From the sequence record PV357172.2: a stretch of 64,000 nucleotides of DNA; one strand, 5' to 3'. The stretch is from a phage. This document shows, piece by piece, positions 13,619 through 46,638 of the stretch (the stretch's first letter is position 1; each line of letters starts with the position of its first letter). Both the position numbers and the translations under genes were made by a program. A model generated the notes under the pieces. The model saw nothing but the letters and a program-made list of their open reading frames with translations. It was not told the DNA's origin and made no database searches.

Positions 13619-13638
13619 CCAACTTTAAGGAAACATTT

Positions 13639-14489: not shown

Positions 14490-14507
14490 CCAAAATTAAA
14501 AAATTCA

Positions 14508-14537
14508 TTTGCCTTCTCTCTTATTTCTTGTTATAAT
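14508..14537 (+). promoter_or_regulatory. sigma70-like early promoter
   Basis: TTTGCC -35-like 14508-14513, TATAAT 14532-14537. Confidence 0.5.
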
Positions 14538-14567
14538 ATTTATATAAATTAATGAGAGGGAAACCAA

Positions 14568-14861: not shown

Positions 14862-14862
14862 T

Positions 14863-14935
14863 GCTCTGATAGTTCAACAGGTTAGAACAGACGACCGATA
14901 ATCGTCAAATCTTGGTTCGATCCCAAGTCGGAGTA
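14863..14935 (+). tRNA. tRNA-Ile (GAT)
   Basis: Anticodon stem GACGA/TCGTC, loop CCGATAA, T-arm CTTGG-TTCGATC-CCAAG, CCA. Confidence 0.8.
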
Positions 14936-14944
14936 CCAAATTAT

Positions 14945-15017
14945 AGTTAGTTGGCAGAGTGGTTATGCACCTCCTTCATACGGAGCGACTACAGTGGTTC
15001 AAATCCACTACTAACTA
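14945..15017 (+). tRNA. tRNA with CAT anticodon (Met/fMet/Ile2)
   Basis: Perfect acceptor AGTTAGT/ACTAACT, loop TTCATAC, T-arm AGTGG-TTCAAAT-CCACT, CCA. Confidence 0.8.
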
Positions 15018-15023
15018 CCAAAC

Positions 15024-31460: not shown

Positions 31461-32345
31461 ATGTATAACTTTAAAGATAAACTAAGACAAAATGCTGGTA
31501 AAACAAAACCTAAAGAGAACAATAATGTTCCTAATGCCAAAGTATTACCATTTCCAGAACTATCCCAAGAAGAAAAAGATAAGTTAGCATTTATGTTTGA
31601 TGCACTTATAGGGCTAAATGGACGTTTATATTCCTCTCTCAATATTAATGAGAAACGTTTAGTAGAGATGTTTTGTAAACGTTACCAAGTTACTTCAAAG
31701 GGCAATTCTTATAAAGAAGGTGAGAAAGCATTTACAGTCTTAAAGATTAGCGCATATGCACATCGTTTCTTAGTTTATGGGTTGCAAATGGAATACTTTA
31801 CTATCCCATCATTTAGCTCTTTCCATATCTTTGAAGATGAACGAATGAATATTGATGATCTCTACGGGGATACATACAAATACTCAGGAAGTCCATTCCA
31901 CGATGCATTAAGGAGTTACCCATCTAACTATTTACCCATTAGAGCATCTCAAGGTAAAGCTAGCATCTTTGCTGTATACTCAGGATCTAAAGCATCGGAT
32001 CTAGAAACTTATATATTTAAAGAGCGTAAATCTGTGCTTCCAGATGAAGCATTGTATAACAATCCATTGCTTCCAGAAAAAGAACCAGAAAAAATTGATG
32101 TAACCCCACCAATACCGTCTGACTCTCAGTATTTAATTTATGAGAAACAAGTTAAGTTATCCCTAGAAATTGGATTAGTTACACCGCTTGCTGCAGCATT
32201 CATAAATAGATATCTAGAAATTCCTGATGAGTTCCACACACGTTATAATACGAATATTCAGATAACGGATGAACTAATTGCGTTAGCAAAAGATACACCT
32301 ACAGATACTGAGGCGTATCAAAAAGCATACCAAGAGTTACTATAA
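31461..32345 (+). CDS. hypothetical protein (294 aa)
   Basis: Track ORF with GGGAG SD; followed by a hairpin at about 32355-32385. Confidence 0.55.
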   Translation: MYNFKDKLRQNAGKTKPKENNNVPNAKVLPFPELSQEEKDKLAFMFDALIGLNGRLYSSLNINEKRLVEMFCKRYQVTSKGNSYKEGEKAFTVLKISAYAHRFLVYGLQMEYFTIPSFSSFHIFEDERMNIDDLYGDTYKYSGSPFHDALRSYPSNYLPIRASQGKASIFAVYSGSKASDLETYIFKERKSVLPDEALYNNPLLPEKEPEKIDVTPPIPSDSQYLIYEKQVKLSLEIGLVTPLAAAFINRYLEIPDEFHTRYNTNIQITDELIALAKDTPTDTEAYQKAYQELL

Positions 32346-32792
32346 TACTCTGCATGTCTCGGTGCACAATACCTGTACCGAGACTCAAATACAAACTCTC
32401 GTTGACAGATAGCTAAATGTATGTTATCATAACTCTATGAGTTAATAGAATTAACCATTTAGAGTTGCCACACAGAAGGTGTGGTGGTTCAGTAATTTAA
32501 AATTACTAACTTGTAGCGGAGGATACGGAGCGACAGGACAAGTTAATAAGTAATTTAATATAAATTACTAGAAACATCACGAGACCTTCTGGCGGGGGGC
32601 AAAGCTCTATATGAGAACCCTGGGGGATCTTATATTTAAAATAAAAGTAAAACTTTTGACCACATAATTTACATTCAAGATGATACACCTGTTGCCGCTC
32701 ATCTGCTAGGATGGCACAACACTTTCTTCTAGACTCCTAAGTTTCTAGGAAATTGATAAGCACAAATTCTAGAGATCACACAAAAATATTCA

Positions 32793-33529
32793 TCGGATTT
32801 GCACATATTCTAGGGCAGTTTTCACTGTTCCTAGAAACTCCAGCAATAGGCGGTTAATACAGGGCGGTTATAGGGAGGGCGGTTATTTCTAGGAGACATT
32901 TTTTGAAAACACATTTCCAGAAATTACTGTCGGATTTGCACATTGTGTTTCTAGAAATTTATGGTCGGATTTGCACAAACGCCTAAGTTTTTAGGAACTC
33001 TTACTCTCCTGAAAATAGCAGCATTATTTCGGGCCGAAGGCCCATGATTGCCTGAGTTTTTAGAGCCACAAGAATTTTCACTTGTCAAGCTATTTTGCCC
33101 CATTTTGCTAATAAAATTTTACTTTTTCTGCACCTATCTCAAATTTCCCCAAATTATCTCAACTCTTCCCCAAAATCCCCGCAAATCAGGTGCTCCGCAC
33201 CAATCCTGCGCCTACTTCCTTCTAGTCCCAAAATTTCTCTCACTCTCTCATCCTCTCCTCAAACCTATACAATCACACACCCTCTCATCGAAGTCATAAA
33301 AATCTTGTCGGATTCGCACATCTCAACACATGTCGGATTTGCACATACTCTAGCTAATCCCACAGGATTCGAACGCAGTTCGTGATTGCTGGAGTTTTTG
33401 GGAAAATTCATTGTCGGATTTGCACACTATAAAAATTTTTCGGGTCGGATTTGCACACTACCAAAAATTGTCGGATTCGCACATACACGCCCACGCGTAA
33501 TCCATGGGGGCAAATGTCGGTTTTGCACA
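32793..33529. repeat. dispersed array of 10 copies of GTCGGATTTGCACA in non-coding DNA
   Basis: Copies near 32793, 32928, 32964, 33307, 33332, 33413, 33444, 33470, 33516 (two as GTCGGATTCGCACA, one GTCGGTTTTGCACA); irregular spacing. Confidence 0.8.
33100..33300 (+). repeat. about 200-nt pyrimidine-rich (C/T) tract with strand asymmetry
   Basis: Plus strand almost lacks G across this interval. Confidence 0.7.
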
Positions 33530-33559
33530 AAAGCGCAGGGCAATTGCCCTGCTCGCCTG

Positions 33560-33735
33560 AATGCGAATAAAAATAAGAATCATTCTCATTTAAAAAGTGG
33601 AATGCGAATGAGAATCATTATCATTTAGAAAACGGAATGAGAACTATTCAAGAAGTGAAATGATTCTCATTTAAAAAGTGGAGTGATTATCGATTAGCTA
33701 GTGAAATGCGAATGATAATGATTCGCATTTAAAAA
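33560..33735. repeat. tandem about 35-bp repeats with Fur-box-like palindromes
   Basis: Four to five units such as AATGCGAATGAGAATCATTATCATTTAGAAAACGG; GAGAATCATTATC matches 12 of 13 positions of the Fur consensus. Confidence 0.6.
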
Positions 33736-33762
33736 CGGAAGTGAGAAACACTGCTATTTAAG

Positions 33763-33872
33763 TTATCCACAGACTTATTAACAGCACGATTTGACTTGAC
33801 AGAATCCTAGCCATTTTGAGGCGTTATCCACAGACTTATCCCCAGGTTATTCTACTGTATAAATATACAGTA
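33763..33872. repeat. left arm of inverted repeat carrying DnaA boxes
   Basis: TTATCCACAGACTTAT twice (33763, 33824) followed by CTGTATAAATATACAG palindrome. Confidence 0.7.
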
Positions 33873-33987
33873 TTCCTATGCAGTGAATAATTCTAATATA
33901 GGCTTAAAACGTCCTGAGTGGTGGTACTAAAACAAAGGGGTATTTATCTGAAGGACTGAAAAACTGGGATCTGCTCCCCGCTTGTTA

Positions 33988-34182
33988 TCAGTCCGGTAAT
34001 TGATGCGTGATCTTCTCCTCCTCCCCGTAGGAATCCACCAAATGCTGATAATACCCATCGTTATCATAAATCACTTTATCATAATCGCCACGCTCGACCG
34101 CTTGCCGATTTTCCAGCGTATCAGGCACAAAGAAAGTATCAACGGTAACAGTAGTTTTAGTTACAACAATTTTATCACTCAT
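33988..34182 (-). CDS. hypothetical protein (64 aa)
   Basis: Minus-strand ORF in the IR-flanked cassette; Fur-like motif in its upstream region (34196-34216). Confidence 0.45.
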   Translation of the reverse strand: MSDKIVVTKTTVTVDTFFVPDTLENRQAVERGDYDKVIYDNDGYYQHLVDSYGEEEKITHQLPD

Positions 34183-34308
34183 AACGCCATCGCCCCTAGA
34201 ATGAGAATGATTATTATTACCATTACAAGCCCGTTACTAAATCGTAAACGCTGGGAATGTTTACCAGCGGTATTATTAGATTTATGGGATTGCGTTTTAC
34301 GCCACCAG

Positions 34309-34509
34309 CTATTCACGGTAGACACGCCAGCCGTCTAGCTTCCATTCTTCCCCCTTGCGAATATTGAAAAACCAATCATTAAAATTGTAACCATCTTCTG
34401 ACATGATCACGCCGTTTTCTTTCATGTACAAAAATTCATTGCTAGTAAAATATTGATTACTAACTTTAAAACCTTGTTTCATTTTTTCTAGTGCTTCATC
34501 TTTAGTCAT
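34309..34509 (-). CDS. small protein with DUF2829-like pattern (possible Tad2-like sponge)
   Basis: EALEKMKQGFKV...DW...EEW...GW pattern resembles DUF2829 proteins as I recall them; AGGTGG SD. Confidence 0.4.
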   Translation of the reverse strand: MTKDEALEKMKQGFKVSNQYFTSNEFLYMKENGVIMSEDGYNFNDWFFNIRKGEEWKLDGWRVYRE

Positions 34510-34850
34510 TGCGCCACCTTTCGAAACGCTGTTTCAATACTATCCGCAGTGGATTGAATATACGCGCCTTTCATTATCAGGCGCTCGGTACATACCTTGC
34601 GGAAAATATTAATAAAATCATCTTCGTTTTCTGCAATTAATGCTTCACCCATAACCTGAACGTCACAAGATGCAAAGGTCAAAAATTGAAACGCTAGTTC
34701 ACGGGCAACGACCGCATTAATTTTATAGTGCGCCTTGCCCTCATAAATATTAATAACGCCCTTATATTCAGGGGAAAGCTGATTTAAATAGTTTGCTAAT
34801 AATGCCGGACGGCAATTAGCAACAAAACGATTGCCCTCATAAATTACCAT
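34506..34850 (-). CDS. hypothetical protein (114 aa)
   Basis: ATG at 34850 with GGAG SD. Confidence 0.5.
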   Translation of the reverse strand: MVIYEGNRFVANCRPALLANYLNQLSPEYKGVINIYEGKAHYKINAVVARELAFQFLTFASCDVQVMGEALIAENEDDFINIFRKVCTERLIMKGAYIQSTADSIETAFRKVAQ

Positions 34851-34851
34851 T

Positions 34852-35064
34852 TTATAACACTCCACGAAAGGCCGCGTAAAAGGTGGCAAAATGTTTAACC
34901 GTCTCAGCGATCACGTTGCCCCGTTTATCGAATTTCTTTTCTGTAACACGAAAGGCGTTTTTGTTGCGTGCTACATATTCGATTTTACAATCTGGACGCT
35001 CGAACGTGTTAACGTCCACCAGCTTAAAGCCTTTCGAACGTGTAAGGGAAACGTTACGGATCAT
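34852..35064 (-). CDS. hypothetical basic protein (70 aa)
   Basis: AGGAG SD; translationally coupled. Confidence 0.5.
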   Translation of the reverse strand: MIRNVSLTRSKGFKLVDVNTFERPDCKIEYVARNKNAFRVTEKKFDKRGNVIAETVKHFATFYAAFRGVL

Positions 35065-35066
35065 TT

Positions 35067-35255
35067 TTATTCTCCTTTACTAGTCATGCAGCCCAGCAGA
35101 TAAGAAAAAACGGCGATACCCGCGCCAATAATAACCATTGGTTTTGTATTTACTAAACCACAATAGGAATCCTGAATACCATAAGCGGTGGCGAAAAGAG
35201 TCAGAATAGCGCCCAAGATACCTGCTAGAATAGCTCGAAAAATAACCATTTTCAT
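35067..35255 (-). CDS. small membrane protein (63 aa)
   Basis: ATG 35255 after TTTCTAGGAGAATGAAA; two hydrophobic helices. Confidence 0.45.
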   Translation of the reverse strand: MKMVIFRAILAGILGAILTLFATAYGIQDSYCGLVNTKPMVIIGAGIAVFSYLLGCMTSKGE

Positions 35256-35296
35256 TCTCCTAGAAATTAGAGGCGAAAGTAACGCCCAGTTATTGG

Positions 35297-35524
35297 TTAC
35301 ATTAAAACGATTTTGGCGGCTTGTTTTTTGGTGCAATGTTCCGCTTTCAATTCATCCAGCAAAAATCCAGCTGTTTGCTGATCAATCTTGTCATTATTGT
35401 AAAGCTCCTGAATGGTAACATAAGTTTTAGCAATCCCAAATTCAGAAACCATAACGCTTACAATAGCGGGAACGGATACCCATTCCATACCATTAAAAAT
35501 TGCAGAAGATGATGAATGTACCAT
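35297..35524 (-). CDS. hypothetical protein (75 aa)
   Basis: AGGAGG SD after TTTCTAGG motif; first gene of the minus-strand cassette. Confidence 0.5.
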   Translation of the reverse strand: MVHSSSSAIFNGMEWVSVPAIVSVMVSEFGIAKTYVTIQELYNNDKIDQQTAGFLLDELKAEHCTKKQAAKIVLM

Positions 35525-35646
35525 TTTAACGCCTCCTAGAAATCAGGGAAAATTTTCAATCCACCGTTTTGGTGTAAAGGCATTATAACAAAAAAGGCCA
35601 CCATAAAAGGCGACCTTTACAAAACTTTACATTAGGTTAATTATTA

Positions 35647-35760
35647 CTCGCTTTCGGTGCTAACGGTAAAAGTAGAAATATCAATACCTTTCACCATTTC
35701 CAGCATTGCCGCCACCTGGCCGCCGCGTTGGGTCTTTACTTTAATATTACCCCACAGCGT
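35647..35760 (-). pseudogene. 38-codon gene remnant (3' end only)
   Basis: Open frame between stops encoding ...TLWGNIKVKTQRGGQVAAMLEMVKGIDISTFTVSTESE with no start or RBS; a hairpin and T-run follow on the minus strand. Confidence 0.3.
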
Positions 35761-35825
35761 TTAGCTCGTTAGAAAGCGATTTAGGCCGCTTATTTTGGGC
35801 ATCATTATAGTATGCTTCCCATTTA

Positions 35826-35935
35826 CCCTGTATATTTATACAGTGGAATAACCTGTGGATAAGTCTGTGTAAAAGTGCTGTAAAGCCTTCCTATTGTGTC
35901 AATCAAATTTACAAAATGTATAAACCTGTGGATAA
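35826..35935. repeat. right arm of inverted repeat carrying DnaA boxes
   Basis: Reverse complement of the left arm: CTGTATATTTATACAG palindrome and TGTGGATAA twice (35854, 35927). Confidence 0.7.
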
Positions 35936-36126
35936 CTTAAATGATAGTGGTTCTCACTAACTAATTTATACAGTTATTATATAACAAAATATAGTTAGTT
36001 GGCTAATAGGATTTTAAAGTGATTATGAGTCTGCTAAGTAAACCTGAAAAACTCATTAGGTAGTCTGCTAATGATTTTGATATAATATAATAGAGATTAA
36101 ACTAATAACATAAGGAAACAATAACA

Positions 36127-36645
36127 ATGGGTCTATTTAAAGATATAGATTATTCGCTTGCTAATGATAACTTTTATTATGATGAAACATCCCCATCATT
36201 TCTAAGATGGAAAGTACAGAAAGGTAATAGTAAGGTGGGGGATATTGCAGGGCATTATAGTAACACAGGTTACTATCGAGTAAAGTTAGCAGGCGAACAA
36301 TACGCAGTGCATAGAATAATATGGGTATTATTTAATGGTGAGATTGATAGCAATCTAACAATCGATCATAATGATCGTAACCGTGCTAATAATAACATTA
36401 ATAATCTTCGCTTAGTAGATCATAAGCAGAATACGAATAACAAGAAAGATTATAAGCGTGCTAATAAGTTGCCTAAGCATATCTATTATAATGGTTCTAG
36501 AGTTGATAATAACGGAAGAAACTATTTGCGCGCTATAGTTAAAGATCCTACTAGTAACAAAAGTGTTAGTAAATCAGGTTATGATTTACAAGAGTTATTA
36601 TTATGGGTAGAAACTAAAAAAGCTGAATTTGGGATTGTCAATTAA
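36127..36645 (+). CDS. HNH homing endonuclease
   Basis: HRIIWVLFNGEIDSNLTIDHNDRN...NNLRLVDHKQN HNH motif. Confidence 0.8.
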   Translation: MGLFKDIDYSLANDNFYYDETSPSFLRWKVQKGNSKVGDIAGHYSNTGYYRVKLAGEQYAVHRIIWVLFNGEIDSNLTIDHNDRNRANNNINNLRLVDHKQNTNNKKDYKRANKLPKHIYYNGSRVDNNGRNYLRAIVKDPTSNKSVSKSGYDLQELLLWVETKKAEFGIVN

Positions 36646-37033
36646 TTTATTTTATAAATTAACGCAATGCCACTTGATTTTAAAAAGTCAATACCTTTTC
36701 CAACTATTTTTCAATTTTGCTTTTGTTAAATATTTGTTAAATCGAAAATGGGCCGCCTAAAACGCCCTAGAAAGCGGTAAAATTTTCAGGTATGCCATTG
36801 CATTGCCTACCCTCGTTTATCGCTACCACGAGCTTTCTAGATTTTGTCAATATCCCCAAAGCAAATATAAATGAAAAAATTACTTGCCTATCTGCTTGGT
36901 TTTATGGTATTCACGCGCCCGTTCCTTTTAATTTAGGTGAGCGCCGCACGCCGTCCGGTGAAACTGTATTAGCCATATTGCTAATAATTTTGGTATAATA
37001 TAATAACCAAATGAAACTAATAGGAGAATATTA

Positions 37034-37375
37034 ATGATTGAGCTAACAAAAGATATTGATTTAGAAACTGTGCTAGATAATCTTTACTATGATGAAACTA
37101 GTCCCAGTTGCCTACGGTGGAAAGTATCCCGCCCCGGTTGCGCCCTTCATGGGGTAGCAGGTACTAAAAGAAAGGATGGTTACTGGTCTGTACAGCTCAA
37201 TAAAGAGCGTTACCTAGCGCATCGTATCGTGTGGTTATTATTTAATTATAAAATAGATAGCAAACTAGTAATTGATCATATTGATCGTAACCCTAGTAAT
37301 AATTTTATTGATAACTTACGGTTAGTAACTCAAGCCGAAAACAACCAAAATAAGGGAGGCTATAGAAAGGCGTAA
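37034..37375 (+). CDS. HNH homing endonuclease (short paralog)
   Basis: HRIVWLLFNYKIDSKLVIDHIDRN...DNLRLVTQAEN; upstream leader similar to that of 36127. Confidence 0.75.
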   Translation: MIELTKDIDLETVLDNLYYDETSPSCLRWKVSRPGCALHGVAGTKRKDGYWSVQLNKERYLAHRIVWLLFNYKIDSKLVIDHIDRNPSNNFIDNLRLVTQAENNQNKGGYRKA

Positions 37376-37616
37376 AACTTACGTTTCTTTACAAAAATAA
37401 GGTTGCGCCCTTTTCGGGAATCTCCTATTATTTATCACGTAGGGCGGCAATGACGAACTACACGGCGGGAAGTTTACCGCCGCGCTCTTTAAAAATTGGG
37501 TACATCTTAAAGCCTATCGGCGGTAAACTTATTCATTATAAGGAATCGACGATATGAAACAAACTTTATTGATCACTGGCAAGCCTAGCAAGGCACTAGA
37601 TAGCAAAACAAAAAAT

Positions 37617-37650
37617 TTGTTGACAGTAGCGCAAAATTCTGTAAAATGGC
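37617..37650 (+). promoter_or_regulatory. near-consensus sigma70 promoter (TTGACA, about 17 bp, TAAAAT)
   Basis: Lies inside track ORF 37554-37757, which I regard as non-coding; a second TTGACA-type promoter sits at about 37745-37775. Confidence 0.5.
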
Positions 37651-37986
37651 GATTCAAGCAATATTTGCAAGGTCGCCAGCAAGGTTTAGAAATGATCTGG
37701 CGAAACATTATGATTGACCTGAAGGAAAATCATAAAAAATCTCAAAAAATTGTTTGACAGCCTAGCCGATAGGTTTTAAGATGTACCCAGTTCGAAAAGA
37801 GCGATAACTTGATAAAATTTGACGGTCGGCACTTACCATAATGTGCCCCGCCCCCTAACGGGATATAGCGGCCTACGTGGAGTTCTTTAAATTGATTATA
37901 TTGGCGAGCGGATTGTTACTTATTACCTGCTGTTACTTTCTAGCAGGTAATGCGGAACAATCCCCAAATAACTAGGAGTTTATATT

Positions 37987-38238
37987 ATGAAAAACGTTAT
38001 TACCGCGCCTAAAATTGGTCAATCCGTTTTCATCCCTTTCGTTACTAAAACGGATGAATTAACCGGAAAAGCCGAGCGCATCAAAGGCGCAGCGCTTATG
38101 CCATTTGATACAATCGACGCGGTATACGCTGAAACGGAACGAAGTAACAACGGAAAAACTATTTACAGCGTTCGGGTTAAATCCGGCGACGTTGTAAAGG
38201 TTGTTCAACGCAACGAAAAATGGGAAGCTGTATTGTAA
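37987..38238 (+). CDS. hypothetical pre-early-region protein (83 aa)
   Basis: AGGAG SD; followed by hairpin ATCCCCC...GGGGGAT. Confidence 0.5.
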   Translation: MKNVITAPKIGQSVFIPFVTKTDELTGKAERIKGAALMPFDTIDAVYAETERSNNGKTIYSVRVKSGDVVKVVQRNEKWEAVL

Positions 38239-38336
38239 TTTAGTGTTAACTTTATATCCCCCAGTAGTTCGGGGGATATAACGATTAACATTATGTTAAT
38301 CTAATCCCTTAAATTAAACTAATAGGAGTTTTTACC

Positions 38337-38744
38337 ATGACTAACGCAAAAACCGCAAAATTCGCATGGAATGAAGAAAACACTCAGAAAGCTGTTACCA
38401 TGTACCAGCAGTTAATCAACGAAAACGGTTTAGATTTTGCAAATAGCGACGGCCTGAAAGAGATTGCAAAAGCAGTAGGCGCGGCTTCTCCTGTGTCTGT
38501 TCGCTCAAAATTGACCAGTGCAAAAGCCTATCAAAAAAGCGATAAGCCGCGTAAAGTTGGCGGCGGTAGTTCAATCCGTAAAGCGCATTATGTGCGAGTA
38601 ATTGCAAAACACGCTATCGATTCCGGCATTATCAAAGACGCCGATGATCTGGCAAGCCTTGAAAGTGCTAAACTGGAAACGCTGGACGCAGTAGCGCAAC
38701 TGTTAGGCGTTGCCGATGAAGTAAAACAGGCCGCAGGTGAATAA
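38337..38744 (+). CDS. hypothetical pre-early-region protein (135 aa)
   Basis: AGGAG SD; followed by hairpin GCCCCCT...AGGGGGC. Confidence 0.5.
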   Translation: MTNAKTAKFAWNEENTQKAVTMYQQLINENGLDFANSDGLKEIAKAVGAASPVSVRSKLTSAKAYQKSDKPRKVGGGSSIRKAHYVRVIAKHAIDSGIIKDADDLASLESAKLETLDAVAQLLGVADEVKQAAGE

Positions 38745-38832
38745 TTATATACCTTGCCCCCTTTAGTGAGGGGGCAATAATATAACTGTTTAGCGATAGT
38801 TGTTATCTTCCCTTAAATCAGGAGTTTTAAAA

Positions 38833-39030
38833 ATGATTTTCTTTCCTACTGAGTCATTAATTTTAGGCTTGTTTATTATGGCGGCCTCGTTATTGTTCGC
38901 TTATTTTCAAAATGATTTAGATTCATATTATTTTAAACGTAAATCTAAATTAGCAAAACGTTTAGGTCTGCTTTGTTTTATCGCTGCCGTTGCTTGTGGT
39001 GTTAGTTCTAGCCTAGTGCCTTTAAATTAA
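38833..39030 (+). CDS. small membrane protein
   Basis: ATG 38833 after AGGAG; hydrophobic. Confidence 0.45.
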   Translation: MIFFPTESLILGLFIMAASLLFAYFQNDLDSYYFKRKSKLAKRLGLLCFIAAVACGVSSSLVPLN

Positions 39031-39120
39031 TGTTGCAAATTATAACGCCTATTGTTCGAGGCGTTATATTTGGCAATATTGCCGTTATTAACCTAATCCC
39101 TTTAATGGAGCTTTATTACT

Positions 39121-40791
39121 ATGATTATTTCCGCAGAAAAACAAACCGTTATCCTGAAAATGGCCGCTGACTTTAATTTCTATGGTAAACGTCTGCGCGC
39201 TACTAAACTGGAGGTCTGCGACGATATATCAAAAGCAGTCTACGATACAACGAAACATTCCACCGCCATTTGTGATTGGCTGGAAGCAAACAAACCAGCG
39301 AAACCAAAAGCGGCAAAAGTAGCAAAAGCCATTAAAAACGATGAGCGCCCCGAAGCGGCGGGGATTGTTTCTAGCACGGTTGAACAGTGGGAAGTAAAAC
39401 AGGGTAAACGCTTTATTATTACGTCGATTCAGAATAATACTTTCCCGCATAAAAACTTTTTAGCCTCGCTTGAACAATTTGCTAAATATATCGGCGCTGA
39501 TTTGCTTGTTTCTAAGTATATTTATAATAAAAACGGTTTTCAAAATGGCGAGGGCGCGGATGGAATAAAGTATGATTCCGCGTTCGATAAATATATTTGC
39601 AGCAAAAACGTGTTTTTACATAACCGCCGTTTTGCTTTCATGGCTGAAATTAATGTTTTGCCAACCGCAGATTATCCGCTTTCTGGATTCGCAGAAACTG
39701 CTACCGCGCTCAATATTGAAGGGCTGGCAATTGGTCACGCTAAAATTACCGCCGAAAGCGTGCCAGCTTTAAAAGGTGAAGTAGTGCGCCGTATGTATTC
39801 AACCGGAACGGCAACGCTCAAAAACTACATTCAGCAGAAAGCAGGACAAAAGGCCGAGGCGCTGCATAACTTCGGTGCGCTTATTGTTGAGTTCGATGAT
39901 GATGGGGAATTTTTTGTTCGCCAGCTTGAAACAATGGACGAAAGCGGGGTGTTTTATGATCTGAATGTTTGCGCTACTCCTGCCGGATGCTATGAAACAT
40001 CGGGGCATGTTTTAGGCTTGCAGTATGGCGATATTCACGCCGAAAAATTAGATGAGGAGTGCGCCGCCGCATCTTGGGGGCATGGTGATACCTATGGGCT
40101 AGTAGATATTCTTAAACCAAAATATCAGTTTGTGCATGACGTGCATGATTTTACATCGCGCAATCATCATAACCGCGCATCCGGTGTATTCCTAGCGAAA
40201 CAGTATGCCGCCGGACGTGATAAAGTTCTGGATGATCTTATCGATACCGGTCGCGTGCTGGAATCAATGGAACGTGATTTTAGTCAAACAATCATTGTTG
40301 AATCGAATCACGATTTGGCGCTATCCCGTTGGCTTGATGATCGTAATGCTAACATTAAGGACGATCCCGCCAACGCCGAACTATATCACCGCCTGAATGC
40401 TGCGATTTACGGAGCTATTGCAGAAAAAGACGACACCTTCAACGTGCTAGATTATGCGCTGCGCAAGGTTGCAGGTTGTGAATTTAACGCCATTTTCCTA
40501 ACGACTGACCAATCTTTCAAGATTGCAGGTATTGAATGCGGCGTACACGGTCACAATGGCATTAACGGGAGCCGTGGCAATCCGAAACAATTTAAGAAAT
40601 TGGGCAAATTAAACACCGGACACACTCATACCGCCAGCATTTACGGCGGCGTTTATACCGCTGGCGTGGCTGGTAGTCTGGATATGGGTTACAACGTTGG
40701 CGCGTCAAGCTGGACACAAACGCATTTAATTACCTATGCAAACGGTCAACGCACTTTGATTGACTTTAAAAACGGTAAATTCTTTGCGTAA
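39121..40791 (+). CDS. A1: A1-like pre-early protein, Mre11/SbcD-type metallophosphatase nuclease (556 aa)
   Basis: Metallophosphatase motifs GDIHA, ESNHD, GHNG and GHTHT; length equals T5 A1 as I recall it. Confidence 0.65.
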   Translation: MIISAEKQTVILKMAADFNFYGKRLRATKLEVCDDISKAVYDTTKHSTAICDWLEANKPAKPKAAKVAKAIKNDERPEAAGIVSSTVEQWEVKQGKRFIITSIQNNTFPHKNFLASLEQFAKYIGADLLVSKYIYNKNGFQNGEGADGIKYDSAFDKYICSKNVFLHNRRFAFMAEINVLPTADYPLSGFAETATALNIEGLAIGHAKITAESVPALKGEVVRRMYSTGTATLKNYIQQKAGQKAEALHNFGALIVEFDDDGEFFVRQLETMDESGVFYDLNVCATPAGCYETSGHVLGLQYGDIHAEKLDEECAAASWGHGDTYGLVDILKPKYQFVHDVHDFTSRNHHNRASGVFLAKQYAAGRDKVLDDLIDTGRVLESMERDFSQTIIVESNHDLALSRWLDDRNANIKDDPANAELYHRLNAAIYGAIAEKDDTFNVLDYALRKVAGCEFNAIFLTTDQSFKIAGIECGVHGHNGINGSRGNPKQFKKLGKLNTGHTHTASIYGGVYTAGVAGSLDMGYNVGASSWTQTHLITYANGQRTLIDFKNGKFFA

Positions 40792-40847
40792 TTAAATTAT
40801 TCCCCTAGCGGCTTGAAATATAGCCGCTATTATAGGAGCTAAATTAA

Positions 40848-41105
40848 ATGAAAGTTACATTACCCAAAACATTGGACGAAAAAGTATTTATTTCACCGGA
40901 TGAAATGGAATCTGATAAAGTTTACAGCTTCGGGCCTATCCTAGCCGCCAAAACTAATACGGATGGTATTATTTCCGTCGATTCCCGTGATAACGATATT
41001 GTTCCTTTTGATGATGATGGCGCTTTTTATGAGTGGCTAAGCGATAATAATTTACCCGTAAACGGTGAATTAACGCCATACCAGATGCAGATTATTATCA
41101 AATAA
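40848..41105 (+). CDS. hypothetical protein (85 aa)
   Basis: Track ORF with AGGAG SD. Confidence 0.5.
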   Translation: MKVTLPKTLDEKVFISPDEMESDKVYSFGPILAAKTNTDGIISVDSRDNDIVPFDDDGAFYEWLSDNNLPVNGELTPYQMQIIIK

Positions 41106-41143
41106 ATTAAATCCATTATTAAACTAATTGGAGTTTTATAAAT

Positions 41144-41536
41144 ATGAAAAAGCAAAATATTCCCTTCGATCGCGCTCAGTCCTCAATTGTTCTGGTTTAT
41201 TCCAACGGCGAACGTTACCACGTCGAGGCTGGACACGTTATTGATGACCTATTAGATTTCAATGACGCTTTGCAGGTTACTACCTTTGCATATACGCAGG
41301 GCAAACTAACCAGCCATATTAAAGCAAAAGGCGTTTATGTTGACACGGTGAAACAAGAAACGATTATCATCGACGCCGTAAAATCCGGCCTAGCCTTTGC
41401 AGTTGTCGCGCCTTGCCTCGCTTGCCTTGATGATCAATTGATTAGTGCAAAGGTCTACACATGTGCGGGGATTCGTTCTAGCGTATCCGGTGAGGATGTT
41501 AGTTTTATCGCTGATGCGTTGGCTTATGGTCTTTAA
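41144..41536 (+). CDS. A2 candidate (130 aa)
   Basis: Size and position next to the A1-like gene only. Confidence 0.35.
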   Translation: MKKQNIPFDRAQSSIVLVYSNGERYHVEAGHVIDDLLDFNDALQVTTFAYTQGKLTSHIKAKGVYVDTVKQETIIIDAVKSGLAFAVVAPCLACLDDQLISAKVYTCAGIRSSVSGEDVSFIADALAYGL

Positions 41537-41616
41537 TAGTTGATTTATTATTGCCCGCTTATAAATAGCGGGTAATGCTGAATTAATCTAATCCCTTAAA
41601 TGGAGAACGTAACAAA

Positions 41617-42351
41617 ATGAATCAAGTTAAAACGAATATTACCCGTAATTTCCCGCATATTTCCCGCGTCATGATTTGGGATCTTGATGGCACTATCGTT
41701 AATTCATTCCATCGTGTCGCGCCTTGCTTTGATAGCGACGGGAATTTAAATTTAAATAAGTATAAAAATGAGGCTTGCAAACATGATTTAATAATGCAAG
41801 ATACTTTATTGCCTTTGGTGGAATATATGCGCCAATGCATGAATGACGCAAATACTTTAAACATTATTTGCACCGCTCGACTGATGAGCAAATCAGACTA
41901 TTATTATTTGCGTAAACAAGGATTGCGCGGGCGTGGTGATAGTAATATCCGTGTATTTTCCCGCGATACACTGCATAAATATTTTGAGGCTGATAAGGTT
42001 AGCGAAATATACCACAGCAAAGACGCAGTTTATAAATCGTATTATTTTGAGCTATTCAAACAACTATATCCGAACGCTGATTTTACAATGATTGATGATC
42101 ATAAAGGTGTATTATCAGCGGCAGCGTCATACGGATTTAAAACGCTGGACGCGCAAGCCGTTAATGATATTCTATCAATCGGCGTGGCATTGATAGGCGG
42201 AACCTTTATTGATGAATCTCTCGATGATGATAATGATTATCAGTTCCTAGCGGACCGATTGAAATTATGTTGGGAAAGTATGACCGAGGAAGAACGCGCA
42301 GAATATAGTTGCAGCCCGCAACAATATATTGAGAAATTAAAAGTTGCGTAA
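41617..42351 (+). CDS. dmp: HAD-superfamily phosphatase, Dmp-like 5'-deoxyribonucleotidase (244 aa)
   Basis: HAD motif I DLDGT and motif IV IDDH; same length as T5 Dmp as I recall it. Confidence 0.6.
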   Translation: MNQVKTNITRNFPHISRVMIWDLDGTIVNSFHRVAPCFDSDGNLNLNKYKNEACKHDLIMQDTLLPLVEYMRQCMNDANTLNIICTARLMSKSDYYYLRKQGLRGRGDSNIRVFSRDTLHKYFEADKVSEIYHSKDAVYKSYYFELFKQLYPNADFTMIDDHKGVLSAAASYGFKTLDAQAVNDILSIGVALIGGTFIDESLDDDNDYQFLADRLKLCWESMTEEERAEYSCSPQQYIEKLKVA

Positions 42352-42513
42352 TAATTAAAGTTGAAATAGTCACGGTGTGTAATGATAACATGCCGTGACT
42401 ATTAGCTTGCTAAGTACCGGGCGGTAATGAGACTCATTCTCATCTGGGGGGCCACTGCACCCACCCACGCGTACGTAATCCAAAGAATTTGGCAAAAGTC
42501 ATTTTAGTGCTAA

Positions 42514-43053
42514 TTAACTGTTTAATTGGGCAACGTCTGGTATACTTCCTTTGAACATCTCCTGTATTGCAAAGTCACCATGAAATGTCCTTCTTAGTAA
42601 ATTTGCATAATTTACGGCATCTTCTAATCCGCTATAGGGAAAGTACTTAGTAGTACCCCTTATCAGCCCCTGTTTATCATGTAATCTTACCATCCACTTC
42701 TGAAGTTCTTTATGCCATGTAACATTTAGATAGCCTGATGATGCTCTTGAGATTCTGCCATTATGATTATTCTCTGTAATTGAAGCCTCTCTTAAATTTG
42801 ACCATCTATTATTTAGTTTATTCCTATCTATGTGGTCTACACATTCCTCTGGCCATCTATTCTCCATAATAACAAAAGCTACTTGATGTGCATAAGCTTT
42901 AAACCCTCGATACTTAAGCTGCCTATATCCCCTATTTAAAGTACCTGCTTCTTTACCCTTACGATTGCCTCTTTTCCAGGTAAAAACTCCGGTTTCGGGA
43001 TCATAAGCAAATACTTCTTGTATTTCCTGTATGTTTAAATTATTCTTCATCAC
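42514..43053 (-). CDS. HNH homing endonuclease
   Basis: HQVAFVIMENRWPEECVDHIDRNKLNNRWSNLRE HNH motif. Confidence 0.75.
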   Translation of the reverse strand: MMKNNLNIQEIQEVFAYDPETGVFTWKRGNRKGKEAGTLNRGYRQLKYRGFKAYAHQVAFVIMENRWPEECVDHIDRNKLNNRWSNLREASITENNHNGRISRASSGYLNVTWHKELQKWMVRLHDKQGLIRGTTKYFPYSGLEDAVNYANLLRRTFHGDFAIQEMFKGSIPDVAQLNS

Positions 43054-43285
43054 TCACCTTTGCCCGAAATCTCTTCCGCGACGCCCGAGATCCATCCGAC
43101 CACTCCCGCTCAAACTCCGCACGTTTCTCGTCAAACTTCCGCTCCCTTTCCGCAATCTTCCGCTCCCTTTCCGCAATCTCCCGCGATACTTCCGCAGTAT
43201 ACTTACGATGCTTGTTAATAGCCGCAGTCATTCCGAAAACTCCCGCAAGTACCCCGATAATAAAAGCAATTATAATACTAAACAT
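43040..43285 (-). CDS. small membrane protein with charged repeat tail (81 aa)
   Basis: N-terminal TM helix then IAERERK repeated, encoded by a 21-bp tandem DNA repeat (about 43140-43185). Confidence 0.5.
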   Translation of the reverse strand: MFSIIIAFIIGVLAGVFGMTAAINKHRKYTAEVSREIAERERKIAERERKFDEKRAEFEREWSDGSRASRKRFRAKVSDEE

Positions 43286-43472
43286 CTAATTCCCTCTCAA
43301 TTTGCAGAATACGGGTACTATCACAACGTTGGAGTTCTACTAATTTTTCTAGAGCAAATTGTTGTTGTTTTACCTGAGCTTCTAGAGTTTTTAGGCGAAC
43401 ATACGCGTTATAAGAAACAATGAAAGTTGCCCAGACTAGTATTACTATTAGTGTAGCTACTACTTCCATCAT
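43278..43472 (-). CDS. TM plus coiled-coil small protein (64 aa), paralog family
   Basis: ATGATG start overlaps the upstream stop. Confidence 0.5.
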   Translation of the reverse strand: MMEVVATLIVILVWATFIVSYNAYVRLKTLEAQVKQQQFALEKLVELQRCDSTRILQIERELDV

Positions 43473-43576
43473 TTACGTTTCTCCGTTAGTAAAGTTTCAA
43501 TTCTAGCTAAGTGATTATCTAAAATACATTGCCCAATAATCATAATTCCCAGTAATGAAATAATTACCCATTCCAT
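43469..43576 (-). CDS. TM plus coiled-coil mini-protein (35 aa), paralog
   Basis: MEWVII...ARIETLLTEKRK, same N- and C-terminal signatures as the 61-aa neighbour; below track cutoff. Confidence 0.4.
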   Translation of the reverse strand: MEWVIISLLGIMIIGQCILDNHLARIETLLTEKRK

Positions 43577-43761
43577 TATTTACGCTCCTCTAATAAAGTT
43601 TCAATTCTAGATAACCTATTACTCAACTGCATTAATTTAACCTCTACTTGGGTTACAGAGGTATCTATTACACGTAAGCCTACAAAGAGAAGTATCAGTA
43701 GGATGAATATGCCAATAATTACCCATTCCATTAAATCCACCCCGCCATAGCTGCTAACCAA
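43576..43761 (-). CDS. TM plus coiled-coil small protein (61 aa), paralog
   Basis: ...MEWVIIGIFILLILL...RIETLLEERK. Confidence 0.5.
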   Translation of the reverse strand: MVSSYGGVDLMEWVIIGIFILLILLFVGLRVIDTSVTQVEVKLMQLSNRLSRIETLLEERK

Positions 43762-43922
43762 AAACCTACGAAGATTAGGAATAATACAAAACCAAATCCG
43801 TAAATATTAATCCACGCTTCGTACACTTCTCCGCGTCTGTTCTTTCTTTTGTTTGACATATCTTTCCTGCTCCTATAAATATAGTATTTGGAATATTTTA
43901 TAATTTGCGCATAGCCAACCAT
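43731..43922 (-). CDS. small protein with C-terminal TM helix (63 aa)
   Basis: Basic N-terminus, hydrophobic C-terminus; first gene of the minus-strand array. Confidence 0.45.
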   Translation of the reverse strand: MVGYAQIIKYSKYYIYRSRKDMSNKRKNRRGEVYEAWINIYGFGFVLFLIFVGFWLAAMAGWI

Positions 43923-44035
43923 GCTCGTGATTTCCTAGAAGGGCTTTTCACTTTCTTGCATAGTGTTTTCTGCTAGTACACCATCCAAGAAATAAAAAAT
44001 TTAGTTTACTTGGATGTCTTTTTGCTTTATACTAA

Positions 44036-44302
44036 TTACAAGTAATTAGATTGCTCTAGTTTAAATTTACAATCACCATATTTAAGGTCAAACTGACTGA
44101 GATCCCACCATCCAAACTTAGTACGGAGCTGTACTACTGGAAAGCGATCTCCCTTAATACGAACTTTTTGAACCTTGAGACCGTAATGTTCTTCTCCCTC
44201 ACCACCAAAAGATTTTACAAATCCAGTACAAAATGGTTTGGGAGCAGGTGCACAACCAGATAACATAACTGCGGCAACTAGTGTAATCACAAACTTTTTC
44301 AT
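44036..44302 (-). CDS. llp: Llp-like lipoprotein (receptor-blocking candidate)
   Basis: Signal peptide with lipobox LSGC; divergent from the RBP gene as llp is from oad in T5. Confidence 0.6.
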   Translation of the reverse strand: MKKFVITLVAAVMLSGCAPAPKPFCTGFVKSFGGEGEEHYGLKVQKVRIKGDRFPVVQLRTKFGWWDLSQFDLKYGDCKFKLEQSNYL

Positions 44303-44387
44303 ATTTATCTCTCCATTTCTAATTTATGAATATATTATAGCAAAATAGAGAGATGAAAGCAAATACATTTTTATAATAGGAGATTAT

Positions 44388-46145
44388 ATGGGTTTTTTCG
44401 CTGGAAAATATAGCGATGGTAAGACCGTACTATCTTTAAATACTGAATCTGGTGGTGACATTAATCGTCACTATAGTCCAAATACCAATAGTATTTTTCA
44501 TAGTGATATGCCATTTGTCCTAGTTGATGGTACTTATGAGTCTGGGTTAGGTGATGCCGGTAATGGGTTTTTTGTATGTCAGATGCCCTCTGACATAATA
44601 AATATTAAATCCAATGACCCCGGTAGAGTTATATTAACTGCTATTGAGATTAATGGTACTCACAGAGCTTTTCTTAATGGTACTCAGAGTAAGGTGGGTC
44701 AAACTATAGTTGCCACTCAAGCAGATCCTTTTAGATCTTTTGCTAGTGTTTCCCAGACTAGTGGATTTGCATTTGGTAATAGCCTGGCATCTGGTACATA
44801 TAACTATAATCCATCTATAGGGCATGAAGAATCTATTTCTAGGAATGGTACAGGGGGTACTACCTTACATAGTACGTATCATGGTATAGTTAGGCCGGGT
44901 GCAGGAGCTCCAGTAGGTATTACTGTTGCAGAAGCTTTTGCACAGTTAGGATTCCCTACTAATAGTAGTACAGTACCTATAGATGGTAATAACCAATATT
45001 ACTGGGACCCAGGATGGATGTCTCCTTTAGGATCAGCACACAGAGGGCACGATTGGTTTTATGTTTGTAACTCTAACATACGTGGGTATGGTGGGGTAAG
45101 ACAAGGTCTTCCTGGTAATGTAAATACTATGTATCATGATGGAGGTAACAGATTTGTTTGTAGGGGGTCTACAACTAATTTAGCTAACCAATCTGGTAAC
45201 GCTACAATATTACAGGATTGGTATAACATAACCCCTACTAAAGTTATTTGGTATGTTCTGAATTTAAGATACTCAAATGGTGGTATGAGTATCTCTGGTA
45301 ATCCTTTTACTGGTTCAGATATTCTTATATCTCCTTCTAATTTCATAATTAAAGGGGTTAGTCTTCCCAATACTGGATACAAGTTTATTAACCAGAACGC
45401 TTTTGGTAACTTAGGTTATAGACCAGATATGGAGTATATAGGAAATAACGCAGCGTATACCGGGGTTTTTGGGGATACCACGGCAAGGTGTGAACTTGTA
45501 GGATCTAGTAATGGGGGTTTGTGGTCTCCTGTAGATTATGGAGGGGCTAAATCTCAAATTAGTATTTATAAATTCGGAGCTGGTAAGCAATGGTATGTAA
45601 ACTCTAGGGATAATACTATCGGTAATGAACACGGGGTTGTTTGGGGACCATCAGCAGTTCCATTACGACTTTTTGGTGGAAATGTAGGTAGCTCTTACAT
45701 GGGGGATGATATTACTCCCAGCTACCCGGGAACAGGGGATAGATACGTTGGTTTATCAACTATTGGGCTAGGTATACCGGGTGGCAATGCTACAGTAATT
45801 CTTACCACTGAAGTTATATCAGGTAACCTTAACTGTGCAGGTGTTCCTGCTAATACATGGAATAACGGTGTGTTTCAAGTGCAAGGAAGAAGAGCATATA
45901 GCTATAGTAATGGAGATGCAATATTCCACCAGATTTTAACATTACCAGTAGGGTATTTAGTACCTTTTCATACTACATCTGCTTTTAGATACACACCTAA
46001 CAATGCCCTAAGTAGAAATAGTTTTATATACACTGCTAAAAATCTGGGGAATGGAAATGTAGAGTTAGGGGTAGTTATGCACGTAAGTTTAGGTAGTGCA
46101 GTTTTCCTACCGAGATTAAGAGTAACAGTTCAACGCCTTACCTAA
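44388..46145 (+). CDS. receptor-binding protein, pb5-like (585 aa)
   Basis: N-terminus [17 protein letters not shown]...SGGDINRH...IFHSDM resembles T5 pb5 as I recall it; position upstream of terminase. Confidence 0.6.
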
Positions 46146-46155
46146 AGGAGGAAAT

Positions 46156-46638
46156 ATGGCAAATGATGTATTAGTACCAGATCTTATGTCCCCTGAAGGG
46201 ATGGATGTAATTGAAGCATATTTACAGTGTGGGAGTGATGTGCCTTCTGCCGCACGTAGTCTTGGAATGTCCGAAATTGCTTTTAGAGATATTATGAATC
46301 GTAGTGAAGTTAAGAACTACTTAAATGATATTTTTATGGAGAGTGGTTTCCGTAACAGAGATCGTTTATTTGGTGTTCTGGATGAAGTTATCAAGCGTAA
46401 ACTAGAGGAACTAGAAGAAACTGGCATGGGTTCTGACCAAGATATTATGGATATTCTCTGGAAAGCACATAAAATGAAAATGGAAGAAATGAAAATGATG
46501 GTAGAACTGGAGAAAGTTAAGGCAGCAGCCCGTACTCCAGCTAACCAGACCAACATCCAGAATAATATTATTGCTGGAGCTGGGGATCAAAACTACATGG
46601 ACTTAATTACTTCCCTAGCTACTGGAGGTAAGAAGTAA
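46156..46638 (+). CDS. terminase small subunit (160 aa)
   Basis: Directly upstream of and overlapping the large terminase gene. Confidence 0.55.

What the first reader, a model, noticed from the sequence alone, without database searches (positions are those of the whole stretch)
32350..44030. Pre-early module sits between early and late genes, suggesting a collapsed terminal repeat
In T5 the A1/A2/dmp genes and the injection-stop region lie in the roughly 10-kb terminal repeat at the genome ends. Here an A1-like, A2-candidate and Dmp-like block of about 11.6 kb is flanked by early genes on one side and the lipoprotein/RBP/terminase genes on the other. That is what a single-copy, circularised representation of a terminally redundant linear genome would look like, in reverse-complement orientation relative to T5 convention. 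Physical DNA termini would then lie near 43.9-44.0 kb and the repeat's inner boundary near 32.4 kb.
Basis: partly seen in the sequence, partly recalled or inferred. Interest (0 to 1): 0.6.

Follow-up and report, generated by a model that had tools for sequence, protein, structure and literature searches.

The report
Single-copy T5-type terminal repeat, boundaries misplaced
This is the ordinary pre-early (first-step-transfer) terminal repeat of a T5-like phage, written once between the early and late genes as assemblers usually write it; by homology the repeat is about 9.4 kb (33063-42461), not the 11.7 kb proposed.

Summary
The window is a T5-like phage (Tequintavirus) in reverse-complement orientation relative to T5. 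A1 (39121-40791), A2 (38337-38744) and dmp (41617-42351) are 96-99% identical in protein to T5's, and the non-coding injection-stop region (33063-33990) carries T5's repeats, DnaA boxes and 7.9% nick motif. The block lies between the T5.018 homologue (early) and Llp/RBP/terminase (late). It is also well known: about three quarters of GenBank T5-like records look like this.

The boundaries are wrong. The ends of T5, BF23 (termini called from reads with PhageTerm) and NBSal005 all map to 33063 and 42460/42461, giving 9,399 bp. The stretches 32350-33062 (non-coding spacer) and 42462-44030 (a homing-endonuclease insertion plus small membrane-protein genes) are unique DNA in those phages. TerS and TerL are 100% identical to T5's, which supports the same cut sites.

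Whether the repeat is physically duplicated in this phage's virions cannot be shown without reads. Verdict: ordinary and already known, with corrected coordinates.

The parts
31461..32345 (+). Homologue of T5.018, the last early-region gene. Lies outside the repeat.
   Evidence: tblastn with T5.018: 97.3% over 294 aa. In T5 this gene lies 717 bp beyond the end of the LTR.
32346..33062 (.). Non-coding spacer that is single-copy in T5 (T5 10220-10935). Holds DRD copies 7-9 (32792, 32929, 32964), a near-consensus sigma-70-like site (32402-32430) and a conserved structured stretch of about 200 nt.
   Evidence: Region 32563-33562 is 96.8% identical to T5. DRD copies 7-9 are annotated outside the LTR in AY587007. 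Motif positions, promoter-like site, fold z = -3.99.
33063..42461 (.). Predicted single copy of the long direct terminal repeat (first-step-transfer / pre-early region), 9,399 bp.
   Evidence: The last base of T5 (121750) and LTR ends 10219 / 10139 map to 33063. T5 position 1 maps to 42461. The two ends of NBSal005's exactly duplicated 10,822-bp repeat map to 33063 and 42460. BF23's right end, called with PhageTerm, maps to 33063, and its left end is homologous to T5 position 1. Single-repeat records JLBYU43, GEC_vB_N3/N5/N7 and SP15 are linearised at 42461/42462.
33063..33990 (.). Untranslated injection-stop (iss) region, T5's 'Repeat Region 3'. Contains DRD copies 1-6 (33307-33529), palindromes and DRC-type repeats (33560-33750), and IRD'-spacer-IRC' (33740-33870) with two TTATCCACA DnaA boxes (33763, 33824).
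   Evidence: Same order of elements as annotated in AY587007 and described in bioRxiv 10.1101/866236, section 3.3.
33533..33540 (-). Homologue of the T5 major nick site 1 (7.9%), motif CCCTGCGC inside a palindrome.
   Evidence: The motif is taken from the AY587007 feature 'major single-stranded nick 1'. It matches on the minus strand at 33533-33540.
33988..35524 (-). Leftward pre-early genes: T5.017 (33988-34182), a 66-aa ORF with no T5 match (34309-34509), T5.015 (34506-34850), T5.014 (34852-35064), T5.013 (35067-35249) and T5.012 (35297-35524). T5.011 is deleted, leaving a remnant at 35647-35718.
   Evidence: tblastn identities of 73-97%. T5 6345-7449 has no counterpart in the window.
35828..35958 (.). 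IRC-spacer-IRD (T5 'Repeat Region 2'), the inverted partner of 33740-33870, with three DnaA-type boxes.
   Evidence: Inverted-repeat pairs I1 and I3, DnaA-box pattern matches, self-BLAST 75% over 134 nt.
36127..36645 (+). HNH homing endonuclease, hegG / T5.010 homologue.
   Evidence: Pfam HNH_3, E 3.3e-15. 99.4% aa identity to T5.010.
37034..37375 (+). Truncated second HNH endonuclease paralogue, inside an insertion of about 430 bp that T5 and NBSal005 lack.
   Evidence: Pfam HNH_3, E 6.8e-17. 52% identical to the first 112 aa of hegG. Alignment gap between T5 5093 and 5105.
37450..38238 (+). Homologues of T5.009, T5.008 and T5.007.
   Evidence: tblastn 82-94%.
38337..38744 (+). A2, DNA-binding protein required for second-step transfer.
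   Evidence: phrog_1725, E 1e-51. 99.3% identity to T5 A2.
39121..40791 (+). A1, DNA transfer / host-DNA degradation protein.
   Evidence: phrog_1745, E 2.6e-244. 96.9% identity to T5 A1.
41617..42351 (+). dmp, deoxynucleoside-5'-monophosphatase, the last gene before the predicted left terminus.
   Evidence: 95.9% identity to T5 dmp. The T5 terminus lies 123 bp beyond the dmp stop codon; here the distance is 110 bp.
42462..44030 (-). It holds a 36-bp conserved spacer, an HNH homing-endonuclease cassette (42498-43064; ORF 42514-43053) and homologues of the small membrane-protein genes T5.162-T5.159 (43040-43922).
   Evidence: Pfam HNH_3, E 7.6e-12 and phrog_99, E 7e-52. T5.159-162 tblastn 79-91%. 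These genes lie upstream of the RTR in T5 and BF23. The cassette is absent from T5 and NBSal005 and from BF23.
44036..47954 (.). Right-hand flank: Llp lipoprotein (44036-44302, minus strand), receptor-binding protein (44388-46145), TerS (46156-46638) and TerL (46638-47954).
   Evidence: phrog_1119 and phrog_4815. TerS and TerL 100% aa identical to T5. Llp 98% and RBP 67% identical to BF23.

Best explanation
Window 33063-42461 is the single written copy of a T5-type long direct terminal repeat, the pre-early / first-step-transfer region. In virions of T5-like phages this segment sits at both ends of the linear DNA. In replicative concatemers, and in short-read assemblies that merge the two copies, it appears once, between the right-end unique genes (T5.162...llp, RBP, terminase) and the left-end unique genes (T5.018 and the early region). 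That is the arrangement seen here.

Inferred mechanism, taken from T5 biology:
- The terminase (TerS and TerL identical to T5's) cuts the concatemer at two fixed positions about 9.4 kb apart, at 33062|33063 and 42461|42462. The repeat is duplicated by strand-displacement synthesis.
- On infection the end carrying dmp, A1 and A2 enters first.
- Transfer pauses at the iss region (33063-33990).
- A1 and A2 then allow the rest of the DNA to enter.

Shown here: gene identities, synteny, conservation of every named iss element, and the mapping of known termini onto the window. Inferred: that this phage's virion DNA carries the repeat twice with those exact ends, and that the single copy comes from assembly collapse or an arbitrary linearisation.
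For: - Gene content and order dmp-A1-A2 at 96-99% aa identity to T5.
- Alignments run unbroken from the repeat into T5's early side and into T5's late side.
- Termini of T5 (two independent records), NBSal005 and BF23 coincide within 1 nt at 33063 and 42460/42461. BF23's repeats were called from reads with PhageTerm (PMC10644984).
- The 130 nt inside the right terminus are nearly identical in T5, BF23 and the window. The flanks of 33063 are 97.7% identical to T5.
- TerS and TerL are 100% aa identical to T5.
- The iss architecture is conserved: nine DRD copies (six inside the repeat, three outside), as annotated in T5; the 131-bp inverted-repeat pair; the DnaA boxes; and the nick motif.
- Single-copy records are the norm. 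With a 1-kb probe across the inner boundary, 448 records gave 561 places. Records such as vB_Eco_mar004NP2 are collinear with the window across the block and the late genes.
- The literature states that assemblers merge or misplace T5-type repeats (bioRxiv 10.1101/866236 section 2.3; PMC10783031; PMC5557969).
Against: - There are no reads, coverage data or virion-end data for this phage, so duplication and exact ends are not demonstrated.
- The 100 nt inside the left terminus are diverged from T5. BLASTN does not align T5 1-104. That boundary therefore rests on a MAFFT alignment and on NBSal005, which may itself have been trimmed by homology to T5.
- Other depositors annotate different repeat boundaries. 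chee24 maps to 33270 and 42367. Kenya-K16, K20 and K37 map to 33756, 33484 and 33092 on the inner side and to about 42428-42445 on the outer side. Either the ends vary among relatives or those annotations are approximate.
Confidence: 0.85

Rival explanations
1. One reading: the terminal repeat is the whole 11.7-kb block 32350-44030, with ends at about 32.4 kb and 43.9-44.0 kb.
For: Both positions are gene boundaries or intergenic gaps. Repeat length varies among T5-like phages: 9,743 bp in BF23 and 10,822 bp in NBSal005.
Against: - In T5, BF23 and NBSal005 the homologues of 32350-33062 and of the T5.159-162 genes are single-copy.
- All annotated boundaries in relatives fall inside 33063-33756 and 42367-42461.
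- The terminase is identical to T5's.
Confidence: 0.03
2. The phage has a T5-type repeat but with somewhat different ends from T5. The ends would lie within 33063-33760 and 42367-42461, as annotated for chee24 or the Kenyan phages.
For: Depositor annotations of DTRs in chee24, Kenya-K16, K20 and K37 map to those positions. The sequence near the left terminus is diverged from T5.
Against: - The Kenyan boundaries disagree with one another by hundreds of bp, which suggests coverage-based approximations.
- Three genomes, including the read-based BF23, agree to within 1 nt.
- The window is 97-98% identical to T5 around 33063.
Confidence: 0.1
3. The block is truly internal and single-copy in packaged DNA. 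The phage would have lost terminal redundancy or would package from other ends, so nothing has been collapsed.
For: Nothing in the sequence alone proves duplication. Only one copy is present in the window.
Against: - Every characterised Tequintavirus has the repeat.
- TerS and TerL are identical to T5.
- The iss and nick elements, whose function depends on being near an end, are fully conserved.
Confidence: 0.02

Closest known systems
Terminal repeats of Escherichia phage T5 (NC_005859/AY543070: 1-10219 and 111532-121750; AY587007: 10,139 bp)
   Same: Same genes in the same order: dmp, T5.002, A1, T5.005, A2, T5.007-009, hegG, then T5.012-015 and T5.017. Same iss repeat architecture, nick motif, flanking genes on both sides, and terminase (100% aa).
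   Different: - The repeat equivalent here is 9,399 bp.
- T5.011 is deleted.
- The T5.003 and T5.016 positions hold unrelated small ORFs.
- An extra truncated HNH gene lies at 37034-37375.
- The 100 nt next to the left terminus are diverged.
- An HNH cassette sits 36 bp outside the left terminus.
- The receptor module (Llp and RBP) is BF23-like, not T5-like.
Escherichia phage BF23 (OR083247), 9,743-bp DTRs determined with PhageTerm
   Same: The right terminus maps to window 33063 and the left terminus is homologous to T5 position 1. Llp is 98% identical and the RBP 67% identical.
   Different: BF23 has no HNH gene between its T5.162 homologue and the repeat. Its record carries both repeat copies.
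Phage NBSal005 (MN994504), 10,822-bp exact repeats at both record ends
   Same: Same orientation as the window. Its repeat ends map to 33063 and 42460. The 150 nt inside the left terminus are 98% identical to the window.
   Different: It keeps the T5.011 homologue (a 1,011-bp ORF). It lacks both the HNH cassette at 42498-43064 and the truncated HNH at 37034-37375.
Single-copy ('collapsed' or arbitrarily linearised) GenBank records of T5-like phages, e.g. vB_Eco_mar004NP2 LR027384.1, phiAPCEc03 KR422353.1, PNJ1902 OK254197.1
   Same: The dmp/A1/A2 block sits inside the record between the early and late genes, exactly as in the window. The literature describes this as a consequence of assembling long terminal repeats.
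   Different: None in kind. The window is only about 87-94% identical to any of them, with mosaic coverage.

Membership tests
T5-type long direct terminal repeat / first-step-transfer region (Tequintavirus) | Carries dmp, A1 and A2 in that order next to the left terminus | tested here: met
   dmp 41617-42351, A1 39121-40791, A2 38337-38744; 96-99% aa identity to T5.
T5-type long direct terminal repeat / first-step-transfer region (Tequintavirus) | Large untranslated iss region at the other end of the repeat, with IRD'-spacer-IRC' / IRC-spacer-IRD, DnaA boxes, DRD repeats and the 7.9% nick site | tested here: met
   Element order matches the AY587007 annotation and Davison's description.
T5-type long direct terminal repeat / first-step-transfer region (Tequintavirus) | Positions homologous to experimentally or read-defined termini exist and are conserved | tested here: met
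   Ends of T5, BF23 and NBSal005 map to 33063 and 42460/42461.
T5-type long direct terminal repeat / first-step-transfer region (Tequintavirus) | T5-type terminase | tested here: met
   TerS (160 aa) and TerL (438 aa) are 100% identical to T5.156 and T5.155.
T5-type long direct terminal repeat / first-step-transfer region (Tequintavirus) | The segment is physically present at both ends of virion DNA (two-fold coverage, read ends at the borders) | not testable with these tools
   No reads are available. The source contig was not found in IMG/VR, JGI metagenomes, GTDB genomes or the gene-position index.
Collapsed or circularised single-copy representation of a terminally redundant genome | The repeat is flanked on one side by genes next to the RTR and on the other by genes next to the LTR | tested here: met
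   Homologues of T5.162-159, llp, pb5 and terminase on one side; T5.018/019 and the early region on the other.
Collapsed or circularised single-copy representation of a terminally redundant genome | Only one copy of the repeat in the record | tested here: inconclusive
   One copy within the 64-kb window. The rest of the source record is not available.

The most novel reading that the evidence does not exclude
The non-coding DNA that straddles the predicted right-terminal cut (33062|33063) might be the packaging-initiation signal of T5-like phages. To my knowledge no such signal has been defined. The candidate elements are:
- nine same-strand copies of GTCGGATTTGCACA, three outside the repeat and six inside;
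- a near-consensus promoter at 32402-32430;
- an almost invariant, strongly structured element of about 200 nt at 32437-32640.

A lesser alternative is that the HNH cassette 36 bp from the left cut shifts that terminus in this lineage. Neither reading is excluded by the data, and neither is supported beyond position and conservation.
Probability: 0.1. Interest if true: 0.45.

Novelty: already known. Interest (0 to 1): 0.1.

Why it matters
The main value is for annotation. Anyone depositing or analysing this genome should re-orient it to the T5 convention, start it at the complement of 42461, and append a second copy of 33063-42461 at the right end. The termini should first be confirmed with reads. 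The virion genome is about 9.4 kb longer than the collapsed sequence, and 18-20 pre-early ORFs are diploid in the particle.

It also corrects two specific errors. The HNH gene with the small membrane-protein genes (42462-44030) and the spacer 32350-33062 should not be counted as part of the first-step-transfer DNA.

No new biology is implied.

Tried and rejected
1. Finding the source contig. An exact 48-mer spanning the left junction gave no hit in IMG/VR, JGI metagenomes or GTDB genomes. The A1 protein is not in the gene-position index. Contig length and topology therefore could not be checked.

2. A shared cut-site motif. CCCACGCGTA..TAATCCA lies immediately outside the left terminus (42464). 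It also lies at 33490, exactly where Kenya-K20's DTR boundary is annotated, which looked like one terminase site used twice. I rejected this for three reasons:
- The internal copy is identical in T5 while T5's junction copy differs, and neither co-varies across NBSal005 or BF23.
- The Kenyan boundaries are mutually inconsistent: 33756, 33484 and 33092.
- The local-alignment score is at background level.

3. Using the chee24 and Kenyan repeat annotations as boundary evidence. They scatter over hundreds of bp, so I treated them as approximate.

4. Promoter and terminator scan of 32000-44500. Counts were not above the shuffled expectation: 43 against 40.3, and 13 against 10.6.

5. Rfam at gathering thresholds. 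It found only tRNAs.

6. Covariation test of the structured element at 32437-32700. Only three homologues were in hand and they are almost invariant, so the test is uninformative.
Full report
**What the window is**

Megablast of 32350-44030 against 50,697 phage records hits 497 records. Nearly all are T5-like phages of Salmonella or Escherichia, at 76-86% coverage and 87-91% identity. The left 25 kb and the right 20 kb of the window behave the same way, with best matches of about 90-94% and mosaic coverage. The window is therefore a Tequintavirus that is not identical to any deposited genome.

**Checking the observation**

- The 556-aa ORF at 39121-40791 is A1 (phrog_1745, E 2.6e-244; 96.9% identical to T5 A1).
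- 38337-38744 is A2 (99.3%).
- 41617-42351 is dmp (95.9%).
- Most other T5 pre-early ORFs have homologues in T5's order.
- To the left lies the T5.018 homologue (31461-32345, 97%), followed by the early region with 19 tRNA genes.
- To the right lie Llp, the receptor-binding protein, TerS and TerL.
- There is no second copy of the block in the window.

The gene content and the flanks are as described.

**What the arrangement means**

In T5 the repeat is annotated at 1-10219 and 111532-121750. It carries dmp, A1, A2 and the injection-stop signal.

- One alignment runs unbroken from T5's LTR into its early genes (T5 9264-13000 to window 33991-30288).
- Another set of alignments runs from T5's RTR back into T5.162-T5.159 and on to the terminase.

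The window is therefore T5's two ends overlapped through a single copy of the repeat. This is the structure of a replicative concatemer junction. It is also what assemblers produce.

- Davison notes that many GenBank T5-like records have dmp, A1 and A2 misplaced because assembly software has difficulty with the large terminal repeats (bioRxiv 10.1101/866236, section 2.3).
- The Kenyan Salmonella-phage study describes a region of more than twice the average coverage that merges into a single segment in a circular assembly (PMC10783031).

In the database used here, a 1-kb probe across the inner boundary finds 448 records but only 561 places. Most records therefore carry one copy.

**Where the boundaries really are**

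Inner boundary:
- T5's last base (121750) aligns to window 33063.
- The LTR end in the independently sequenced AY587007 (10139) also maps to 33063.
- NBSal005 has an exactly duplicated 10,822-bp repeat at both record ends. Those ends map to 33063 and 42460.
- BF23's 9,743-bp repeats were determined from reads with PhageTerm (PMC10644984). BF23 ends at the position homologous to 33063, with the terminal 130 nt nearly identical to T5 and to the window. It begins at the position homologous to T5 base 1.

Outer boundary:
- T5 base 1 aligns to window 42461.
- Several single-repeat records (JLBYU43, GEC_vB_N3/N5/N7, SP15) are linearised at 42461/42462.

The repeat equivalent is thus 33063-42461, or 9,399 bp.

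- 32350-33062 corresponds to T5 10220-10935, a non-coding spacer.
- 42462-44030 holds a 36-bp conserved spacer, an HNH cassette (42498-43064) and the homologues of T5.162-T5.159. In T5 and BF23 these genes lie upstream of the RTR.

TerS and TerL are 100% identical in protein to T5's. This is the best available argument that the cut sites are the same.

Caveats on the boundaries:
- BLASTN does not align T5 1-104 to the window. The left boundary therefore rests on a multiple alignment and on NBSal005.
- Other depositors annotate different repeat ends. chee24 maps to 33270 and 42367. Kenya-K16, K20 and K37 map to 33756, 33484 and 33092, and to about 42428-42445. Because these disagree with one another by hundreds of bases, I treat them as approximate.

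**Anatomy of the repeat**

Elements of the untranslated region 33063-33990:
- The 14-mer GTCGGATTTGCACA occurs 10 times on the plus strand at two or fewer mismatches (11 matches in all, against 0.25 expected).
- Six copies lie inside the repeat (33307-33529) and three just outside it (32792-32977). This matches 'direct repeat D' copies 1-6 and 7-9 in AY587007. One more copy lies at 31116.
- The 131-bp IRD'-spacer-IRC' (33740-33870) pairs with IRC-spacer-IRD (35828-35958). Both carry TTATCCACA-type DnaA boxes, as Davison describes.
- T5's nick-1 motif CCCTGCGC is present at 33533-33540 on the minus strand.

Gene layout:
- Pre-early genes diverge from the 35525-36126 region. T5.012-017 homologues run leftward and hegG...A2, A1 and dmp run rightward. 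This accounts for the GC-skew reversals seen.
- Differences from T5 are loss of T5.011, unrelated ORFs at the T5.003 and T5.016 positions, and an extra truncated HNH gene.

**How it most likely works**

These steps are inferred from T5 biology, not shown here.
- The terminase cuts concatemers at two fixed sites about 9.4 kb apart. The repeat is duplicated by extension synthesis (mechanism as summarised in PMC5557969).
- The dmp/A1/A2 end enters the cell first.
- Transfer stalls at iss.
- A1 and A2 then permit second-step transfer.

**A lead that failed**

A motif just outside the left terminus recurs at 33490, exactly where Kenya-K20's repeat boundary is annotated. This suggested one cut site used twice. 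I rejected it because the two copies do not co-vary across T5, NBSal005 and BF23, the Kenyan boundaries are mutually inconsistent, and the alignment score is at background level.

**Verdict**

This is an ordinary, already-known feature. The concept is supported by comparison and the coordinates are corrected. Physical duplication cannot be tested without reads; the source contig was not found.

Noticed in passing
window 42498-43064 (ORF 42514-43053, minus strand): An HNH homing-endonuclease cassette is inserted 36 bp outside the predicted left terminus and replaces the last ~14 codons of the T5.162 homologue. It is absent from T5, BF23 and NBSal005. A 1.2-kb probe spanning it is covered at 80% or more in 13 relatives (e.g. 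NR01, ECOP18, SHSML-45, HildyBeyeler), and further relatives (SP15, JLBYU43) carry the cassette at the end of their records.
   Followed up: partly
window 36950-37379 (ORF 37034-37375, plus strand): A second, truncated HNH endonuclease lies beside hegG. It is 113 aa, 52% identical to the N-terminal 112 aa of hegG, and has lost the C-terminal part. It sits inside an insertion of about 430 bp that T5 and NBSal005 lack.
   Followed up: partly
window 35647-35718: T5.011 (336 aa in T5; also present in NBSal005) is deleted. Only a remnant matching its last 25 residues remains.
   Followed up: partly
window 33533-33540, 20210-20217 and 5154-5161 (all minus strand): T5's nick-site motif CCCTGCGC occurs exactly three times in 64 kb, always on the same strand. 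Measured from the predicted left terminus the distances are about 8.9, 22.2 and 37.3 kb. These fit T5's major nicks at 7.9% and 18.5% and, approximately, at 32.6% (the percentages are from my own knowledge; the motif is from the AY587007 annotation).
   Followed up: partly
window 32792-33529, plus 31116: Ten same-strand copies of GTCGGATTTGCACA (T5's 'direct repeat D') straddle the predicted right-terminal cut at 33062|33063, three outside and six inside. A further copy lies inside the T5.019 homologue. The motif is a one-mismatch DnaA box, and the copy at 33521 matches TTWTNCACA exactly. Its function in T5 is unknown.
   Followed up: partly
window 32402-32700 (plus strand): A near-consensus sigma-70-like site lies at 32402-32430: TTGACA, 17 nt, TATCAT, with an extended -10 TG. 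It is followed by a stretch that folds far better than shuffled controls (z = -3.99). About 200 nt of that stretch are nearly invariant in T5 and Kenya-K20 although the flanks diverge. chee24 and NBSal005 lack it, and Rfam has no matching family. It could be an uncharacterised small RNA or a structured DNA element.
   Followed up: partly
window 44036-46145: The receptor module is BF23-like rather than T5-like. Llp is 98% identical to BF23's receptor-blocking protein. The RBP is 67% identical to BF23's and only 30% identical to T5 pb5. This suggests BtuB rather than FhuA as receptor (inference). Meanwhile the adjacent TerS and TerL are 100% identical to T5, so the region is a mosaic.
   Followed up: partly
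window 43464-43761: The small membrane-protein ORFs at 43469-43576 and 43576-43761 share a 77%-identical stretch of about 65 nt. This looks like a tandem duplication of a T5.160-like gene.
   Followed up: no
window 3479-15020: A cluster of 19-20 tRNA genes lies on the plus strand, as expected for the T5 early region. Rfam adds one at 3479-3550 that ARAGORN did not call, and misses ARAGORN's tRNA-Ser at 12500-12593.
   Followed up: no
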